A stretch of 64,000 nucleotides of DNA, from NCBI GenBank assembly GCA_031414655.1, contig JANNVZ010000002.1, forward strand, positions 129,687 to 193,686. Direction: 5' to 3'. Origin of the DNA: Flavobacteriales bacterium. Lineage in GTDB: Bacteria; Bacteroidota; Bacteroidia; Flavobacteriales_D; Sanyastnellaceae. The notes beneath the pieces were generated by a model. It had not been told where the DNA came from and searched no databases. It saw only the letters and a list, made by a program, of their open reading frames with translations. Within the stretch, counting starts at the first letter, position 1, and each line of letters opens with the position of its first letter. A program made the position numbers and the translations under genes. Below are positions 46,746 through 52,118 of the stretch, one piece after another.

Positions 46746-47807
46746 TTACTTATTGCTCTGCGAAGCATAACTCCTCCACCTCTCTAAGATGGTGGTCATG
46801 TCTTCGGGCAACTCTTTTTCAAACTGCATCCACTCGCCACTAACGGGGTGGATGAAGCCCAGCGAACGCGCGTGCAGTGCCTGCCGTGGCAATATCTGAA
46901 AACAATTGTGAATGAATTGCTTGTACTTGGCGAAGGTGGTTCCTTTCAAAATCTGATCGCCTCCGTATTCAAAATCGCCAAAGAGTGTGTGACCAATGTG
47001 CTTCATGTGCACACGTATTTGATGGGTACGGCCTGTTTCCAGTTTGCATTCTACCAAAGTGACGTAGCCTAATCTTTCTAGCACTTTGTAATGCGTCACC
47101 GCGTGTTTGCCATGGTCACCATCCGGAAAAACAGTGAACACTTTACGGTCACGTATACTGCGGCCTGTGTTGCCAGTAACGGTGCCGTCTTCTTTTACAT
47201 CGCCCCACACAAGGGCCACGTACCTGCGCTCTATGGTGCGCTCAAAAAATTGTTTGGAGAGTTGTGTAAGCGTGCGATCTGTTTTTGCAATGACCATTAC
47301 ACCCGTGGTGTTTTTATCTAATCTATGCACTAAGCCCGGGTGGGTGTCCACTCGCAGGGGCAAGTTTTGAAAGTGATACAACAAACCATTTACCAATGTG
47401 CCGGTGTAGTTGCCATGACCGGGGTGCACCACCATGTTGGCCTGCTTGTTCAGTATCAGCAGTTCTTCGTCTTCGTACAGAATTTCGAGTGGGATGTTCT
47501 CTGGCAGCAACTCCAACTCGCGAATGGGGTAAGGCAATTCAATGGTGATCACATCCAATGGTTTCACCTTGTAGCTGCTCTTCACAGGCTTGCCACCCAC
47601 TTTTACAAAATCGCTGTCGCAGGCATTTTGCAGCCGTGTGCGCGAGGTTTTTTCTAACTTGTCAAAAAGGAATTTGTCTATACGCACCATGCTTTGGCCT
47701 TTGTCCACCACCACGCGATGGTGCTCAAAAAGGTCATCATCGTTGTCTATTACAGGTTCGTTGTCCAATTCTTCTTTCATGGTGCAAGTGTACGCCTCAC
47801 GCGCCAC
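46746..47807 (-). CDS. rluD: RluA-family 23S rRNA pseudouridine synthase (RluD-like)
   Basis: S4-like N-terminus (RIDKFL) and catalytic HRLDKNTTGV, GRTHQIRVH. An alternative ATG lies at 47780. Confidence 0.9.
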   Translation of the reverse strand: MAREAYTCTMKEELDNEPVIDNDDDLFEHHRVVVDKGQSMVRIDKFLFDKLEKTSRTRLQNACDSDFVKVGGKPVKSSYKVKPLDVITIELPYPIRELELLPENIPLEILYEDEELLILNKQANMVVHPGHGNYTGTLVNGLLYHFQNLPLRVDTHPGLVHRLDKNTTGVMVIAKTDRTLTQLSKQFFERTIERRYVALVWGDVKEDGTVTGNTGRSIRDRKVFTVFPDGDHGKHAVTHYKVLERLGYVTLVECKLETGRTHQIRVHMKHIGHTLFGDFEYGGDQILKGTTFAKYKQFIHNCFQILPRQALHARSLGFIHPVSGEWMQFEKELPEDMTTILERWRSYASQSNK

Positions 47808-47899
47808 CCCTGACCCCTACAGGGGAAGTTCGGGAGGGTTTTGTGAGAAGGGTTTCGGGTTTCTTATCACATCCCATCAAAGCTGGCGCTTTTCTCCCT

Positions 47900-47950
47900 G
47901 AACTCGTTTCTGGGTCTCACAATGGTTTTGTGGGATGCCAAAACGAGTTC
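47900..47950. other. Extended hairpin at the left edge of the accessory islet
   Basis: GAACTCGTTT...AAACGAGTTC (perfect 10-bp outer stem) encloses CTCACAA-TGGT-TTGTGGG. It lies 9 nt past the stop of ORF 47959-48819 and has no U-tract on either strand. Confidence 0.4.
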
Positions 47951-47958
47951 GGCATGAC

Positions 47959-48819
47959 TTACTGTTTGATTTTTCCTTTGATGGATGCAATGCTTGCTTG
48001 CGCCATTGCGATTTTTTCTTCTTTACTCAATGCTGCGAGCTTTTCATCCAAAATAATTTCAATGCCAGACTTTATCGTCTCAAAATATTCTAGGCATTCC
48101 TCCTCAGATAAACTGTGAATACCAACACTCAGAATAGAGTACATCGCTCGATTGTCTACGAGAAAACTTGGAAGGTATTTTCCCAAAGCCTCTATTTTTT
48201 CCTCCATACGTAAGCGAGTAAATTTATCTTCCGGTAAACCAATATCGCCCTTATGATTGTCAAAACACTCTCTAATAAGGTGCTCAAATATTCTTCTTAA
48301 ATAAACAAACGATCCGATCCCTACGCCATTTGCTGCAAGGCCTATGGCTCTTGTGAACTCCTTTAATTGTTCTTTGGGCAAGACTTTATTGTATTCCTTT
48401 ACCTGTCCGATATGGATATCGGCAATAGATGGGTATTGACCGACTTTCATTAATGATTTCGTAGCTGTATCGTATCTAATGAAAAAGTGTATTTCGTCCT
48501 CATACCTCCTGCATCTCAAAATGATTCGATCAATACCACCATATTGATGGAAGTGATTGCTTCCATTAGAGACGTTAGCCGCACCCTCAAACGTGGACGT
48601 TTCTTTTCGGACGGAATTGTACCCTTCTATCGTTATTCTACCTCTGCCTCCAGTTTCGACACCGACTGCTAAGAGTCGAATAAAGCTATTATTGTTTTCA
48701 CCATTAATCTCTATGGGGGAATAGAGAGGTAAATCGAAAAAGAAATACTTTAATTCAAAAGCCATGATACTCTTTTCTTGCGAAGATATTGAGAACCCGA
48801 GTAGCAAGCTTCTTCTCAT
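47959..48819 (-). CDS. Hypothetical protein 'ORF A': unknown N-terminal half plus a DUF4145/HEPN-like helical C-terminal half (tentative)
   Basis: The C-terminal half (KEFTRAIGLAANGVGIGSFVYLRRIFEHLIRE...MYSILSVGIHSLSEEE) fits the DUF4145-type pattern and contains an Rx4H word (RRIFEH). The ATG abuts the upstream stop (TAGATG); an alternative ATG lies at 48765. Confidence 0.5.
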   Translation of the reverse strand: MRRSLLLGFSISSQEKSIMAFELKYFFFDLPLYSPIEINGENNNSFIRLLAVGVETGGRGRITIEGYNSVRKETSTFEGAANVSNGSNHFHQYGGIDRIILRCRRYEDEIHFFIRYDTATKSLMKVGQYPSIADIHIGQVKEYNKVLPKEQLKEFTRAIGLAANGVGIGSFVYLRRIFEHLIRECFDNHKGDIGLPEDKFTRLRMEEKIEALGKYLPSFLVDNRAMYSILSVGIHSLSEEECLEYFETIKSGIEIILDEKLAALSKEEKIAMAQASIASIKGKIKQ

Positions 48820-49791
48820 CTACCCCACAACCACCACCCCCACCGTATGCCTCGCCACCCCCAGGTTCTTAGCGCAGAGGTGCGGCTTGAAGGCCGTCCA
48901 GCCCAATAGCGTGGCTGTTGTTTCCACCTTGCTGTTGGGCTGCAGTACAAGGCCCTCGCCCTGCTGCGGGCCTGCGGCTGTGGCGCTGAAGTACACCACT
49001 ACATCGGTAGTAGCTGTTTTGGTATGGGTGCTCAGTTTTAGCTTGGTGTCACCCGTTTTGATGGACGCCCGCAGGCGCAGGCTCTTGGTGGCACCTACGT
49101 TCAACAGCACCTTGTAAGGCTTGCCTGCCGCGCGTCTGCCGCGTTTTTTGTGTATTTTTCTTGCGCTGCGGTAGCGGTCGAAAAGCAGTGTCTCCTTCAC
49201 CTGCAGCACTTTGAAAAGCTGGTCCATGCGCTCGCGCAGAAACACGCGCATATCGGCCATGCCCTGCACCATCTGTGCGCGGTGGCGCTTGGTAGTGGCG
49301 CGTATGTCCAGCGGGGCTTCGCGCAGGTCTTCCCATTTGGCCAGCTTCACCTGCAGCACGTCCACATCACCCGCACTGATGCCGTAAGGTGCCAGCAGGG
49401 CCTTCACCCCATCAGCAGTTTCCCACACCGTGCGGCTGTTTACGGTAAGGTCGGCAGCGCTTTGGCGCGTCACATCGCGCAGGCAGCGCTTCAGGCGGTT
49501 CACCACCTCGCCATCGGGCGCAGTATGGGTGAAGTAATAGATGCAGGCAGCGCCCACCAATGCCACGTCAGTAAGCAGGGCGATGCGCGCTAAGCTCCTG
49601 TCTTGCGCATATCCAGTGATATCTGGCGATGCGTCCACTGCCGATGCCTCTATGGCGGCATACAGAGCGTCAAATGTGAGCCTTTCTCCTGCAAACGCAG
49701 GTAATACTGTCACTAATTGCGCTTCCACATCATCAAAGTAGAGGCGGAGTAAGCCTAACATGCTGTAATAATCGTTTTGTTCGTCTGTCAT
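48820..49791 (-). CDS. Hypothetical protein 'ORF B': GC-rich orphan, helical N-terminal part, basic linker, beta-rich C-terminal part
   Basis: A 323-codon open frame in a clearly GC-rich block (hand counts of 57% and 68% G+C in two 60-nt lines). The amino-acid composition is protein-like and no family is recognised. Confidence 0.55.
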   Translation of the reverse strand: MTDEQNDYYSMLGLLRLYFDDVEAQLVTVLPAFAGERLTFDALYAAIEASAVDASPDITGYAQDRSLARIALLTDVALVGAACIYYFTHTAPDGEVVNRLKRCLRDVTRQSAADLTVNSRTVWETADGVKALLAPYGISAGDVDVLQVKLAKWEDLREAPLDIRATTKRHRAQMVQGMADMRVFLRERMDQLFKVLQVKETLLFDRYRSARKIHKKRGRRAAGKPYKVLLNVGATKSLRLRASIKTGDTKLKLSTHTKTATTDVVVYFSATAAGPQQGEGLVLQPNSKVETTATLLGWTAFKPHLCAKNLGVARHTVGVVVVG

Positions 49792-49826
49792 GGGCTGATG
49801 GTGGGTTGTGACTAGTGTAAGGTTAC

Positions 49827-50258
49827 TTTAATTATTGTTTCCGAAAAACAAATATATGATACCGAATGATACATTATTGTCTACGATGCAATAATTATTG
49901 TATACGCTATAGAAATAATTACTCCCGATGTAATAATAAATGTACACCAAATAATAATTGTAGACCGCATGCTATAAATATCTTGTTGCGTAGTAATAAT
50001 TATTGTCTCCGAATGTAACATTATTACATCCAAATGTTTGGAAGTAAAATTATATGCTTAGGAACAAATAAAGTAATCTTCGGAGGCAATAATGTTTGTT
50101 TCGTGTAAAATAATTATTGAATTTTAATAAAAAGTCTTGCTTCGTAGTGAATAATGTTTTGCTCGGAAGCAATAATTATTCCTTCGGAATAATAATATAT
50201 TTTTTCGGAAGAATAATTGTGTGTGTCGGAGGCAATAATTGTAGTTTACTTCAGCAAG
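49827..50258. repeat. Degenerate tandem array of about 20 units of ~21 bp: palindromic core AATAATTATT plus a YCGRWRG-like word
   Basis: Exact cores at 49890, 49995, 50109 and 50171. Twenty unit starts placed by eye span 407 bp over 19 intervals (~21.4 bp each). A hand-counted line is 27% G+C. No ORF explains the region. Confidence 0.8.
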
Positions 50259-50457
50259 TCATGGATGCTTTTGATGGTATTGCTATGGCCAATCTGCTTC
50301 TCCTGCTGACAGAACAGGAACGCAGTGTGGCGTTTGTGCGGGCGGTATGGCACAATGAGCAATAGGCTCTTGCTTATGGGTGGGGGTGAGTTGGCTAAGG
50401 TTGGTTGACGGTTGTGCGGGAGTGTTGTGGGGTAGTAAGAGAGAGCCTTCTGACGAT

Positions 50458-51087
50458 TTAAGAATATGATTTAAAACCTAATTGGTTTTTCCCGGTTTTG
50501 GCTACCCATACCAATGCAAAGGTCTCATCGCTGCTTCTGTGAGGAAGCCAAATGCCTTCATGCGTTTCAACAAAGAAGGGTGAGTCTTCTACCTCTTCCA
50601 ATAGGTCGTTGGGATTTCCAGGAAGAACATATAAAGAATAGCTGTGCCTACCTATTTTCTTTTTTTTGATTGGAATAAGCCCATGAAGCTGCTGCATCTC
50701 AAATCGAGAACCTTTGGCGATCACTTCTCCTGTTATGATGAAATGTCGTGGAATATCATATAAATCCCAGATGTCTCTTTTTCCATTAGGTGTTGGATAT
50801 TGCTTTCTAAGCTCATGCTCACAAAGGTTCATTACACTAGTAAGAAGCTGCTCTTTCTTTATGTCAGCAATTGTTAGTTCATCCTTAGGTAAGTCATTCG
50901 GTACTTTCTCTAATTTACGAGTTGAAATTGTTGCATATAAAGAGAAATCTGCGTCATGGTAAGCAGCACATAAATCTCCTTTGTACAATTTATTGGCTAG
51001 CCAGTCATCATTGAATTTGCGAAGTTCAATAACCAAGTCAGACACCGACTTTTCTAAGATTGGACCCTTTGCCCACGAGATTTCCAT
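50458..51087 (-). CDS. Hypothetical protein 'ORF C' (209 aa, no recognisable domain)
   Basis: Clean ORF with low G+C, divergent from the DUF2971 gene. No motif recognised. Confidence 0.5.
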   Translation of the reverse strand: MEISWAKGPILEKSVSDLVIELRKFNDDWLANKLYKGDLCAAYHDADFSLYATISTRKLEKVPNDLPKDELTIADIKKEQLLTSVMNLCEHELRKQYPTPNGKRDIWDLYDIPRHFIITGEVIAKGSRFEMQQLHGLIPIKKKKIGRHSYSLYVLPGNPNDLLEEVEDSPFFVETHEGIWLPHRSSDETFALVWVAKTGKNQLGFKSYS

Positions 51088-51191
51088 TCATGCGATTTAT
51101 AGCAAACTTACAATGGATGCTAGAATCCAGAATTAGAGACGAGGAAATCATATTACCTCAACCCTCTACATTTGGCTACCTGACAATTGCC

Positions 51192-52007
51192 ATGAAAAAG
51201 CCATCAAAAATCTTTAAGTACGAGGGGATAAATGATCATAGTCTTCTAAATCTGAAAAGAAGCGGTGTGTACTTCGCATCACCTTCTGAATTTAATGACC
51301 CGTATGATTGTAATTGTGGTTTCAAATTGGAGATTGAACCATCTAAACTCGAAGATTTAAGAAGCGGATCTTTTGCATCTCAAAAAGGCCTGCCGAAGGA
51401 AATCCTGAACGAGTTGCGCCATGCTAGTCCTGATTTTTTTATCAATGCGGCTAAGCAGGCGCTTGAAATAGCAAATGATGATTTTTTAAAAAATGGAGGA
51501 ATTGCCTGCTTTTCGCGAGTCAATCACAACTTGCTGATGTGGTCTCATTACGCCAGTTCCTTCAAGGGCTTTTGTCTCGAATTTGACACCAATTATGAAC
51601 CATTCACAAAGCTTTATCCAGTTATCTATTCTGGAACTCTTCCCACCTTGGACGTATCCAAAATTCTAGTTGGTCAGAATGGTATTGAAACTGAAGCTGG
51701 AGAACATTTAAAACTTTTTCTAACTAAATCCAAAGATTGGCATTATGAGAAGGAGTGGCGGTCAATACACAAAACAAAAGGCACTCTGTTCACATATCCA
51801 CAAGAGGCTTTAAAATCAATATACTTTGGTCCGTTGATCGACCCAGCTTATAGGGAGATAATATGCTTGGTTATTCAAGGACAAAATCGGAATGTGAAGT
51901 TCTTTAAAGGAGATATTTCAAAAACCAGTTTCAAAGTTGAGTTCACCGAGTTCTTGTACACTCCATATATACAAGCAAAGGAGAGTGGGCTATTAGATAA
52001 AAGATGA
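51192..52007 (+). CDS. DUF2971-family protein 'ORF D'
   Basis: IFKYEG...GVYFASPSEFNDPYD, CFSRVNHNLLMWSHYASSFKGFCLEF and KDWHYEKEWR match the DUF2971 hallmark blocks. The ATG at 51192 is preferred over the ORF start at 51060. Confidence 0.65.
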   Translation: MKKPSKIFKYEGINDHSLLNLKRSGVYFASPSEFNDPYDCNCGFKLEIEPSKLEDLRSGSFASQKGLPKEILNELRHASPDFFINAAKQALEIANDDFLKNGGIACFSRVNHNLLMWSHYASSFKGFCLEFDTNYEPFTKLYPVIYSGTLPTLDVSKILVGQNGIETEAGEHLKLFLTKSKDWHYEKEWRSIHKTKGTLFTYPQEALKSIYFGPLIDPAYREIICLVIQGQNRNVKFFKGDISKTSFKVEFTEFLYTPYIQAKESGLLDKR

Positions 52008-52118
52008 CACGTCCCATAATGGCGCTGGCTTCTGCTCCTAGCATTCCCCCCGCCCATAAAAATATTTTCTCAATCATGCGGACTATGCCCCATGTTTGCG
52101 TCACAACCAACAGCAAGT

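What the first reader, a model, noticed from the sequence alone, without database searches (positions are those of the whole stretch)
47808..52118. Compact four-gene accessory islet with mosaic composition between rluD and a T9SS substrate gene
Between two ordinary chromosomal genes lie four ORFs with no housekeeping role. ORF A (47959-48819, minus) has a DUF4145/HEPN-like C-terminal half. ORF B (48820-49791, minus) is a GC-rich orphan. ORF C (50458-51087, minus) has no recognisable domain. ORF D (51192-52007, plus) is DUF2971. They are arranged as a co-oriented pair A/B and a divergent pair C/D, separated by the repeat array. Hand-counted 60-nt lines give 37% and 48% G+C in ORF A, 57% and 68% in ORF B, and 27% in the array, so composition changes sharply over a few hundred bp. 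As I recall, DUF4145-type and DUF2971 proteins are recurrent but functionally unassigned passengers of defence and mobile-element neighbourhoods. No integrase, transposase, tRNA target or clear direct repeats mark the borders, so this does not look like a standard island. The combination of HEPN-like ORF, orphan partner, phased repeat array and DUF2971 pair is my best candidate in this window for an undescribed system, possibly an abortive-infection or exclusion-type module. Whether the four genes work together is pure inference.
Basis: partly seen in the sequence, partly recalled or inferred. Interest (0 to 1): 0.7.

Follow-up and report, generated by a model that had tools for sequence, protein, structure and literature searches.

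The report
Gene patchwork hiding a protein–repeat-array unit
The four genes are not one system but a patchwork of unrelated accessory genes; one is a known type of single-gene phage defence, and another belongs to a large unnamed Bacteroidota protein family that always sits behind a long array of 21-bp repeats, a pairing I could not find described.

Summary
The ORFs, the repeat array and the sharp composition changes are real. ORF B has 58% G+C and GC3 of 0.68, which is +3.8 SD for this window. The array has 29% G+C and ORFs A, C and D have 38-39%.

- ORF C has no homologue anywhere.
- ORF A belongs to a family of more than 1,950 proteins and sits alone in variable neighbourhoods. It has no DUF4145 hit.
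- ORF D is DUF2971 / PADLOC PDC-S31, the family of the validated single-gene Aristaios defence.
- ORF B's relatives are never next to relatives of A, C or D.

ORF B is not an orphan. A profile search finds 266 clusters at E<=1e-10 and 1,832 at E<=1e-3, with no Pfam, NCBIfam or PHROG model. Its predicted two-domain fold is confident (pLDDT 94.5) and has no informative structural match.

In all 9 independent lineages examined, the strongest 21-bp-periodic DNA in the locus lies directly upstream of the family member. Unit sequences differ between lineages and between paralogues. The window's subfamily keeps two inverted arms, 10 units each in the window and in L020. Gene and array both evolve fast.

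My best guess, at moderate-to-low confidence, is a cognate protein/operator-array pair.

The parts
47807..47842 (+). G+C-rich hairpin followed by TTTT ('E1'), just upstream of the rluD start. A similar copy lies at the end of the related contig L003.
47900..47958 (.). Compound hairpin between rluD and ORF A. It includes ATGCCAAAACGAGTTCGGCAT at 47935-47955. Copies flank the ORF B module region in L003. Two Logan contigs break here.
47959..48765 (-). ORF A, 268 aa from Met19 (the open frame runs to 48819). It is a solo member of a family of more than 1,950 proteins of about 262 aa, mostly Bacteroidota. It has an N-terminal alpha/beta domain and a C-terminal helical domain.
48820..49791 (-). ORF B, 323 aa, G+C-rich. 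Residues 1-211 form an all-helical domain, 212-225 a basic linker and 226-323 an 8-strand beta-sandwich. It belongs to a large unnamed family.
49849..49856 (-). TATATTTG, which matches the Bacteroidetes -7 promoter consensus TAnnTTTG. It starts 65 nt (-65 to -58) upstream of the ORF B ATG, inside the last array unit, and is conserved in L003.
   Evidence: the consensus itself is from my own knowledge
49829..50036 (.). Promoter-proximal arm of the array: 10 units of 21 bp. On the ORF B strand they read TTCGGAnnCAATAATTA.
50037..50248 (.). Distal arm of the array: 10 units of 21 bp (one of 22) in inverted orientation (AATTATTnnnTCCGA). The dyad centre is near 50036 (CCAAATGTTTGG).
50262..50366 (+). 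Conserved element distal to the array. It can be read as a 34-aa divergent ORF (MDAFDGIAMANLLLLLTE...). The first 18 residues are conserved in L003. Its function is unknown.
50367..50440 (.). G-rich tail. It is the outer end of the roughly 1.6-kb segment shared with L003, and similarity fades here.
50458..51087 (-). ORF C, 209 aa. It is a true orphan: the only database match is itself, and there is no domain or PDB hit.
51192..52007 (+). ORF D, a DUF2971 protein matching PADLOC PDC-S31 and phrog_1762. It carries FNDP, WSHY and YEKEWR (ExE) motifs and is a predicted ADP-ribosyltransferase-type single-gene defence candidate.

Best explanation
The interval is a patchwork of independent accessory pieces, not one system.

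(1) ORF D is a stand-alone DUF2971 / PDC-S31 gene. It is a predicted ADP-ribosyltransferase of the family that includes the Aristaios abortive-infection gene.

(2) ORF A is a solo gene of a large mobile family. A HEPN-like toxin fold is possible but unproven.

(3) ORF C is a lineage-specific orphan.

(4) ORF B and the repeat array together form one self-contained unit of about 1.6 kb. This unit is one member of a widespread, unnamed Bacteroidota family in which the protein gene is always preceded by 8-20 repeats of 21 bp, that is, two turns of the DNA helix per repeat.

Proposed mechanism for the unit (inferred, not shown): the array is a helically phased operator-type binding array for a cognate protein, most simply the ORF B protein itself. 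The protein would assemble along one face of the DNA on both inverted arms and thereby control the promoter embedded in the last unit. Protein and array would co-diversify as a specificity pair.

Shown: the association, the period, the two-arm architecture, the fast evolution without length change, and the portability of the unit. Inferred: who binds the array, and what the assembly does.

The confidence of 0.55 is a blend: about 0.8 for the patchwork conclusion and about 0.4 for the cognate-binding mechanism.
For: Patchwork:
- ORF C has no homologue.
- ORF A relatives sit alone, next to PIN/PemK, Fic or HNH genes.
- ORF B relatives in 9 lineages have no A, C or D neighbours.
- Window 48822-50406 matches L003 at 89.5% identity with different genes on both sides. 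The homology ends at ORF B's stop codon.
- ORF D matches PDC-S31 at 4.6e-54 over the full model. DUF2971 is the domain of Aristaios and a predicted ADP-ribosyltransferase.

The unit:
- Loci were chosen by protein similarity alone. In every one the strongest lag-21/42/63 segment of the whole locus lies within about 600 bp upstream of the family gene.
- Unit sequences are unrelated between lineages. They also differ between paralogues from the same sample: the window units are AT-rich, while the L017 units are 53% G+C.
- The window and L020 each have 10 + 10 inverted units. L001 has 6 + 7. L008/L019 also show inverted arms.
- Between strains whose gene is 96.9% identical in nucleotides, the proximal arm is only 67.5% identical, with zero indels over 480 bp. 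Changes concentrate at fixed phases of the unit.
- At syntenic positions the ORF B-family proteins are 42% identical while the adjacent DUF3822 proteins are 72% identical.
- A -7-type promoter box lies in the last unit.
Against: - No DNA-binding fold is recognisable in the pLDDT-94.5 model.
- About half of the family members examined are acidic (pI 4.6-4.9) yet still carry arrays. This is unusual for proteins that coat DNA.
- Distant members have purely direct arrays, so the two-arm form is not universal.
- An exact promoter box was found in only 3 of the 11 loci scanned (2 of the 9 lineages).
- Nothing shows that the protein touches the array. There are no transcript data.
- Only 9 lineages out of hundreds of clusters were inspected.
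Confidence: 0.55

Rival explanations
1. One reading: the four genes plus the array act together as one new abortive-infection or exclusion module.
For: The genes are tightly packed. The ORF B stop abuts the ORF A frame (TAGATG). ORF D belongs to a defence family. ORF A shows weak RnlA-like fold hits.
Against: There is no co-occurrence anywhere. ORF C has no homologues. ORF B relatives lack A, C and D neighbours. ORF A relatives lack B, C and D neighbours. The module shared with L003 excludes ORF A and ORF C. PDC-S31 and Aristaios are single-gene systems.
Confidence: 0.04
2. The array acts as RNA. It would be transcribed into a repeat RNA that partners with the ORF B protein, as in type III toxin-antitoxin systems such as ToxIN. 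In the two-arm arrays it would instead form a long hairpin RNA.
For: The repeats lie directly upstream of the gene and are specific to each protein. L015 has 14 near-identical direct repeats followed by strong hairpins before the gene. The single-strand folds are far more stable than shuffles: z -10.9 for L020 and -5.5 for the window.
Against: Units within an array are only about 60-75% alike. Variation between strains is concentrated at fixed unit phases and length is strictly preserved, which fits DNA helical phasing. In the window the promoter-like box lies between the array and the gene. There is no Rfam match. The protein shows no ToxN/AbiQ-like match.
Confidence: 0.12
3. The array is bound by a general host factor, or acts as structural or bent DNA, that tunes expression of a highly expressed gene. 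There is no cognate relation to the ORF B protein.
For: The two-turn phasing and the A/T-tract cores are the best conserved features. ORF B's high GC3 could reflect codon bias for high expression. Acidic family members argue against self-binding.
Against: Paralogues from the same sample carry completely different units, AT-rich versus 53% G+C, which one host factor is unlikely to read. A wedge-model curvature calculation gave no exceptional intrinsic bend for most arrays, including the window's (the parameters were recalled from memory). No such array precedes any other gene in about 200 kb inspected.
Confidence: 0.2
4. The unit is a relic or working part of a mobile replicon. The array would be an iteron-type origin or a partition centromere, and ORF B its initiator or centromere-binding protein.
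For: The 21-22-bp phased repeats beside their gene, with the promoter inside the array, and the fast co-diversification, mirror iteron/Rep and parC/ParR logic (from my own knowledge). The unit has different flanks in L003.
Against: The setting is chromosomal. The position is stably syntenic in two lineages at 42% protein identity. There is no match in 72,556 plasmids or 50,697 phages, none in viral contigs and no PHROG. There is no partner ATPase, no winged-helix or ribbon-helix-helix fold, and several paralogues occur per genome.
Confidence: 0.08

Closest known systems
Aristaios / PADLOC PDC-S31 (single-gene DUF2971 anti-phage proteins, predicted ADP-ribosyltransferases related to DarT and AbiGi)
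   Same: ORF D has the DUF2971 domain above Pfam's cutoff and a full-length PDC-S31 match. It is of similar size, 271-296 aa against 316 aa for Aristaios. It carries Tyr and ExE motifs, read directly as WSHY and YEKEWR.
   Different: It comes from a different phylum and sits on a chromosome. Its activity is untested. The neighbouring orphan ORF C has no counterpart in the known system.
Iteron arrays with their Rep initiator genes (P1, F, R6K and pSC101-type plasmids)
   Same: Repeats of about 21-22 bp are phased on one face of the helix. They lie next to the cognate gene, overlap its promoter, have element-specific sequences and diverge quickly.
   Different: The ORF B unit is chromosomal and present in several copies. 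It has 8-20 units, often in two inverted arms. The protein has no winged-helix fold, and nothing suggests replication.
parC/ParR-type partition centromeres (plasmid R1: 5 + 5 repeats flanking the promoter)
   Same: Two sets of phased repeats surround or abut the promoter of the gene for the binding protein.
   Different: There is no ParM/ParA-type partner gene. The arms are inverted rather than direct. The period is 21 bp rather than 11 bp. The protein fold is unrelated.
Type III toxin-antitoxin systems (ToxIN, CptIN, TenpIN)
   Same: A tandem repeat array lies immediately upstream of a protein gene, with repeats specific to that protein. These systems act in abortive infection.
   Different: ToxI-type repeats are 34-45 nt, few in number, near-identical, transcribed and followed by a terminator. 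Here the units are 21 bp, up to 20 in number, divergent and partly inverted, and the promoter-like box lies downstream of the array.
RnlA/LsoA HEPN toxins (for ORF A)
   Same: Both have a two-part layout: an alpha/beta N-terminal domain followed by a helical C-terminal domain. The best fold matches, though weak, are RnlA chains.
   Different: The match is weak (E 0.035, TM 0.23). There is no conserved Rx4-6H motif across the family, no Pfam HEPN or DUF4145 hit and no adjacent antitoxin gene.

Membership tests
DUF2971 / PDC-S31 / Aristaios-type single-gene defence (ORF D) | Pfam DUF2971 match above the gathering score | tested here: met
   39.4 bits against a cutoff of 22, E 1.6e-9
DUF2971 / PDC-S31 / Aristaios-type single-gene defence (ORF D) | Near full-length match to the PADLOC PDC-S31 model | tested here: met
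   E 4.6e-54, model positions 4-256 of 259. Also phrog_1762 at 7e-50.
DUF2971 / PDC-S31 / Aristaios-type single-gene defence (ORF D) | ADP-ribosyltransferase motifs: a conserved Tyr in motif II and ExE in motif III (PMC12522546) | tested here: met
   WSHY and YEKEWR were read in the translation. No structural check was done.
DUF2971 / PDC-S31 / Aristaios-type single-gene defence (ORF D) | Protects against phage when expressed alone | not testable with these tools
   This needs a phage challenge experiment. It has been shown only for the lactococcal Aristaios.
HEPN / DUF4145 (ORF A) | Sequence match to DUF4145 or another HEPN Pfam model | tested here: not met
   No hit at E<=1 for ORF A or for 33 of its homologues
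HEPN / DUF4145 (ORF A) | Conserved Rx4-6H catalytic motif | tested here: not met
   R157-x4-H162 occurs in the window protein, but H162 is not conserved. The invariant residues are R157, R158, E161 and H217.
HEPN / DUF4145 (ORF A) | HEPN-type helical fold | tested here: inconclusive
   The model has pLDDT 90.5. The best PDB hit is RnlA at E 0.035, probability 0.6, TM 0.23.
Type III toxin-antitoxin (ORF B plus array) | Near-identical direct repeats on the gene strand, separated from the toxin gene by a terminator | tested here: not met
   The window units are divergent and half are inverted. A promoter-like box, not a terminator, lies before the gene.
Type III toxin-antitoxin (ORF B plus array) | ToxN/AbiQ-type endoribonuclease toxin | tested here: not met
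   No Pfam or PADLOC hit. The fold searches show no such match.
Iteron / Rep replicon module (ORF B plus array) | Phased repeats of about 21-22 bp next to the gene | tested here: met
   The period is 21 bp in all 9 lineages
Iteron / Rep replicon module (ORF B plus array) | Winged-helix Rep protein, carried on a plasmid or phage replicon | tested here: not met
   The N-terminal domain is all-helical with no PDB match. There are no plasmid or phage matches. The context is chromosomal.
ParR/parC-type partition locus (ORF B plus array) | Adjacent partition NTPase gene | tested here: not met
   None was found in any of the loci
Classical genomic island (whole interval) | Integrase or transposase, tRNA target, flanking direct repeats | tested here: not met
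   There is no tRNA in the 64 kb and no border repeats. None of the four ORFs gives a recombinase hit.

The most novel reading that the evidence does not exclude
ORF B and its array represent an undescribed class of chromosomal protein/repeat-array devices in Bacteroidota. A fast-evolving two-domain protein of new fold and a helically phased array of 21-bp units (10 + 10 inverted units in the window) would co-diversify as a private recognition pair. Several such pairs per genome would form a self-recognising nucleoprotein assembly whose role (switch, exclusion, incompatibility or defence) is unlike any characterised system.
Probability: 0.3. Interest if true: 0.8.

Novelty: new variant of a known kind. 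Interest (0 to 1): 0.6.

Why it matters
Two things follow. First, the proposed four-gene defence system can be dropped. The only defence-type component with outside support is ORF D, an ordinary member of the DUF2971 / Aristaios kind.

Second, the work exposes a robust rule that I could not find described. A protein family with hundreds to thousands of sequence clusters, no database model and a confidently predicted new fold is tied, across deep divergence, to an upstream array of 21-bp phased repeats. The architecture of the array is conserved while its sequence and the protein both change quickly.

This kind of pattern marks specific protein-DNA recognition pairs such as iterons with Rep proteins, or centromeres with their binding proteins. 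Here it occurs on chromosomes, in several copies, and without any known partner function. The idea is directly testable by asking whether the protein binds its own array. If it does, this would define a new DNA-recognition domain and possibly a new kind of regulatory or self-recognition device in a major bacterial phylum.

Tried and rejected
- **Array as coding heptad repeats.** Rejected. The window array has stops and 20/22-bp spacings. Open frames in other arrays follow trivially from a repeat length divisible by 3, and no strand or frame is consistent.
- **The second 21-periodic region of the window (401-1100).** It is a genuine heptad-repeat coding region in an ORF of 351 aa and is unrelated.
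- **Known RNA families and tRNAs.** None found.
- **Intrinsic DNA curvature.** A wedge-model path calculation, with parameters recalled from memory, gave a positive control ratio of 0.31. The window array scored 0.92-0.96, no different from shuffles. Only L008 and L011 were mildly bent. This gives no support for a static bend as the common feature.
- **Phage or plasmid origin of ORF B.** No match in phages, plasmids, viral contigs or PHROGs.
- **Empty-site and synteny test of the rluD to T9SS-gene interval.**
  - The genome scan returned only one distant locus.
  - Exact-protein look-ups gave only contigs that break at 47881-47904.
  - The test therefore could not be done.
- **Conserved sequence shared by all upstream regions.** None was found between lineages. 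A G-rich 20-mer at -614/-628 in two lineages may be chance.
- **Exact Bacteroidetes -7 box in all loci.** Found only in the window, L003 and L020.
- **Literature searches.** Searches for 21-bp repeats in Bacteroidetes and for PDC-S31 found nothing relevant.
- **Integron-like cassette reading of the border hairpins.** No integrase is present, and I saw no attC-type core sites by eye. I did not pursue this further.

Full report
**Observation**

They lie between an RluD-type pseudouridine synthase and an SGL/Por_Secre_tail protein.

The composition mosaic is real. The window is 43.2% G+C. ORF A is 38.8%, ORF B 58.1%, the repeat region 29.4%, the segment beyond it 52.2%, ORF C 38.9% and ORF D 38.1%. 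ORF B's GC3 of 0.68 lies 3.8 SD above the mean of 40 window ORFs (0.45 +/- 0.06). ORFs A, C and D lie at 0.35-0.38.

There is no tRNA in the window, no Rfam match in 46.5-53.5 kb and no repeat pair marking the borders.

**The four genes taken one by one**

ORF D is DUF2971. It matches the PADLOC single-gene candidate PDC-S31 over the whole model (4.6e-54) and phrog_1762. The literature describes DUF2971 as a predicted ADP-ribosyltransferase related to DarT and AbiGi (PMC12522546). It is also the only domain of Aristaios, a validated single-gene abortive-infection system of lactococcal plasmids (PMC11381338). ORF D carries the expected Tyr and ExE motifs, read as WSHY and YEKEWR.

ORF C matches only itself among 5.8 billion proteins. 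It has no domain or PDB hit.

ORF A belongs to a family of more than 1,950 proteins of about 262 aa, mostly from Bacteroidota.
- It has no Pfam hit, and in particular no DUF4145, in ORF A or in 33 homologues.
- Its model (pLDDT 90.5) has an alpha/beta N-terminal domain and a helical C-terminal domain.
- The best PDB matches are RnlA toxin chains, but they are weak (E 0.035).
- There is no family-wide Rx4-6H motif.
- Its relatives sit alone in unrelated neighbourhoods, next to PIN/PemK, Fic or HNH genes.

**ORF B is not an orphan**

The word-indexed search found only two relatives. A profile search of 1.84 billion representatives found 1,832 clusters at E<=1e-3 and 266 at E<=1e-10. They are either about 215-245 aa (N-terminal domain only) or about 310-328 aa.

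No Pfam, NCBIfam or PHROG model covers the family. ORF B itself has no PADLOC hit, and there is no PDB sequence match. The family is absent from the plasmid, phage and viral-contig collections.

The AlphaFold model is confident (pLDDT 94.5). It has a helical domain at residues 1-211 that includes a 60-residue helix, a basic linker, and an 8-strand beta-sandwich. Foldseek gives only weak hits, and only to the beta-sandwich: Ena pilins, cupins, PirA and small phage proteins.

**No co-occurrence of the four genes**

ORF B relatives were examined in 9 independent lineages:
- the window and L003;
- L001/L002;
- L008-L010, L018 and L019;
- L020;
- L011/L012;
- L013;
- L014;
- L015/L016;
- L017.

None is next to a relative of A, C or D.

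A strain-level relative, L003, shares window 48822-50406 at 89.5% identity but has different genes on both sides. The similarity ends exactly at ORF B's stop codon.

**What travels with ORF B is the array**

The loci were chosen only by protein similarity. In every one, the strongest 21/42/63-lag periodic segment of the whole locus lies within about 600 bp upstream of the family gene. In the 64-kb window the array ranks first, with z 5.2 against a background of 0.58 +/- 0.73. The only other periodic region is heptad-repeat coding sequence.

Unit sequences are unrelated between lineages. They also differ between paralogues from the same sample. L017 comes from the same sequencing sample as the window contig and has units of 53% G+C.

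The arrays are not coding.

**Architecture of the array**

On the ORF B strand the window array reads as 20 units of 21 bp. Ten distal units (AATTATTnnnTCCGA) are followed by ten proximal units in inverted orientation (TTCGGAnnCAATAATTA), with the dyad centre near 50036.
- L020 has the same 10 + 10 layout.
- L001 has 6 + 7.
- L008/L019 also have inverted arms.
- More distant members have 8-14 direct units.

A TATATTTG box fits the Bacteroidetes -7 consensus, which I cite from my own knowledge. It lies in the last unit, starting 65 nt before the ATG, and is conserved in L003.

**Evolution of gene and array**
- Between L008 and L019 the gene is 96.9% identical in nucleotides and 98.8% in amino acids.
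- In the same pair the distal flank is 95-100% identical, the distal arm 86% and the proximal arm only 67.5%. There is not a single indel in 480 bp.
- The differences in that pair cluster at fixed phases of the unit.
- The window and L003 show the same trend: gene 95.2% and array 80.5%.
- At syntenic positions (GEVED gene, ORF B family gene, DUF3822 gene) the ORF B-family proteins are 42% identical. The neighbouring DUF3822 proteins are 72% identical.

Both partners therefore evolve fast while period, length and arm structure are held constant.

**Interpretation**

The simplest reading is a cognate recognition pair: a phased operator-type array bound by a protein that co-evolves with it. The only gene consistently linked to the array is the ORF B-family gene itself. 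The fact that paralogues in one sample carry quite different units argues against a single host factor.

Points against this reading:
- No recognisable DNA-binding fold is present.
- About half of the members are acidic, with pI 4.6-4.9.
- Direct evidence for binding is lacking.

An RNA-level role remains possible, since the single-strand folds give z -10.9 and -5.5. It fits the phase-specific variation, the length constancy and the position of the promoter-like box less well. A static-bend explanation got no support from a curvature model, whose parameters I recalled from memory.

I put about 0.8 on the patchwork conclusion. I put about 0.4 on the cognate-binding mechanism.

**Limits**
- Only 9 lineages were inspected.
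- The empty-site comparison in close relatives could not be run.
- The claim of several paralogues per genome rests on shared sample and contig sizes.
- Literature searches were limited to the held library.

Noticed in passing
window 47900-47958; L003 582-602 and 3023-3043; L022 623-647; L023 11118-11142: A short hairpin, ATGCC(A/G)AAACGAGTTCGGCAT, lies between rluD and ORF A. It recurs at both ends of the ORF B region in the related contig L003. The exact 25-mer GATGCCGAAACGAGTTCGGCATGAC also occurs in intergenic spots of two IMG/VR viral contigs. Only one copy is present in the 64-kb window. It may mark exchange points.
   Followed up: partly
window about 47881-47904: Two independent Logan contigs, L004 from the right and L021 from the left, both end inside this hairpin region. 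The NCBI contig spans it. This suggests a repeat or a strain polymorphism at the islet's left border.
   Followed up: no
window 47807-47842; L003 1-38 (reverse): A G+C-rich hairpin followed by TTTT looks like a terminator. In the window it sits upstream of the rluD start, facing away from any gene. A similar copy follows a 170-aa gene in L003. It may be a remnant of a former neighbouring gene.
   Followed up: no
L003 39-551 and 2264-2950: In the related strain the ORF B unit is flanked by two other orphan-like genes: a 170-aa putative membrane protein and a 228-aa helical protein. ORF B itself carries a 1-bp deletion there, which is either a frameshift or an assembly error.
   Followed up: partly
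window 50262-50366 (+): A 34-aa divergent ORF lies just beyond the array (MDAFDGIAMANLLLLLTE...). Its first 18 codons are conserved in L003, better than the array itself. It is unclear whether this is a peptide, a promoter region or an RNA.
   Followed up: partly
window 50380-50405; L008 and L019 at about -628 from the ATG: A similar G-rich 20-mer (GGGTGAGT(T)GGCTAA(A)GGTTG) lies about 615-630 bp upstream of the ORF B-family gene in two lineages, but in opposite orientation. It could be chance; one match also occurs in an unrelated viral contig.
   Followed up: partly
L008 5740-5940 compared with L019 424-624: The promoter-proximal arm of the array is hypervariable between two strains, 67.5% identical without indels. 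The gene and the distal flank are 97-100% identical. This is far more divergence than the surrounding DNA shows.
   Followed up: partly
family alignment A3 (37 members): The ORF B family splits into basic members (pI about 9.5) and acidic members (pI about 4.7). The window gene is basic. Two probable paralogues from the same sample are acidic, and one of them (L017) has a G+C-rich rather than AT-rich array.
   Followed up: partly
window 358-1413 (-): An ORF of 351 aa has a long heptad-repeat C-terminal half. It gives the only other 21-nt periodic signal in the window. This is a coding feature unrelated to the array.
   Followed up: yes
L015 1083-1135 and 1217-1270: In one distant family member, 14 near-perfect direct 21-bp repeats are followed by two strong hairpins, one with a perfect 25-bp stem, before the gene. 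This layout recalls type III toxin-antitoxin loci.
   Followed up: no
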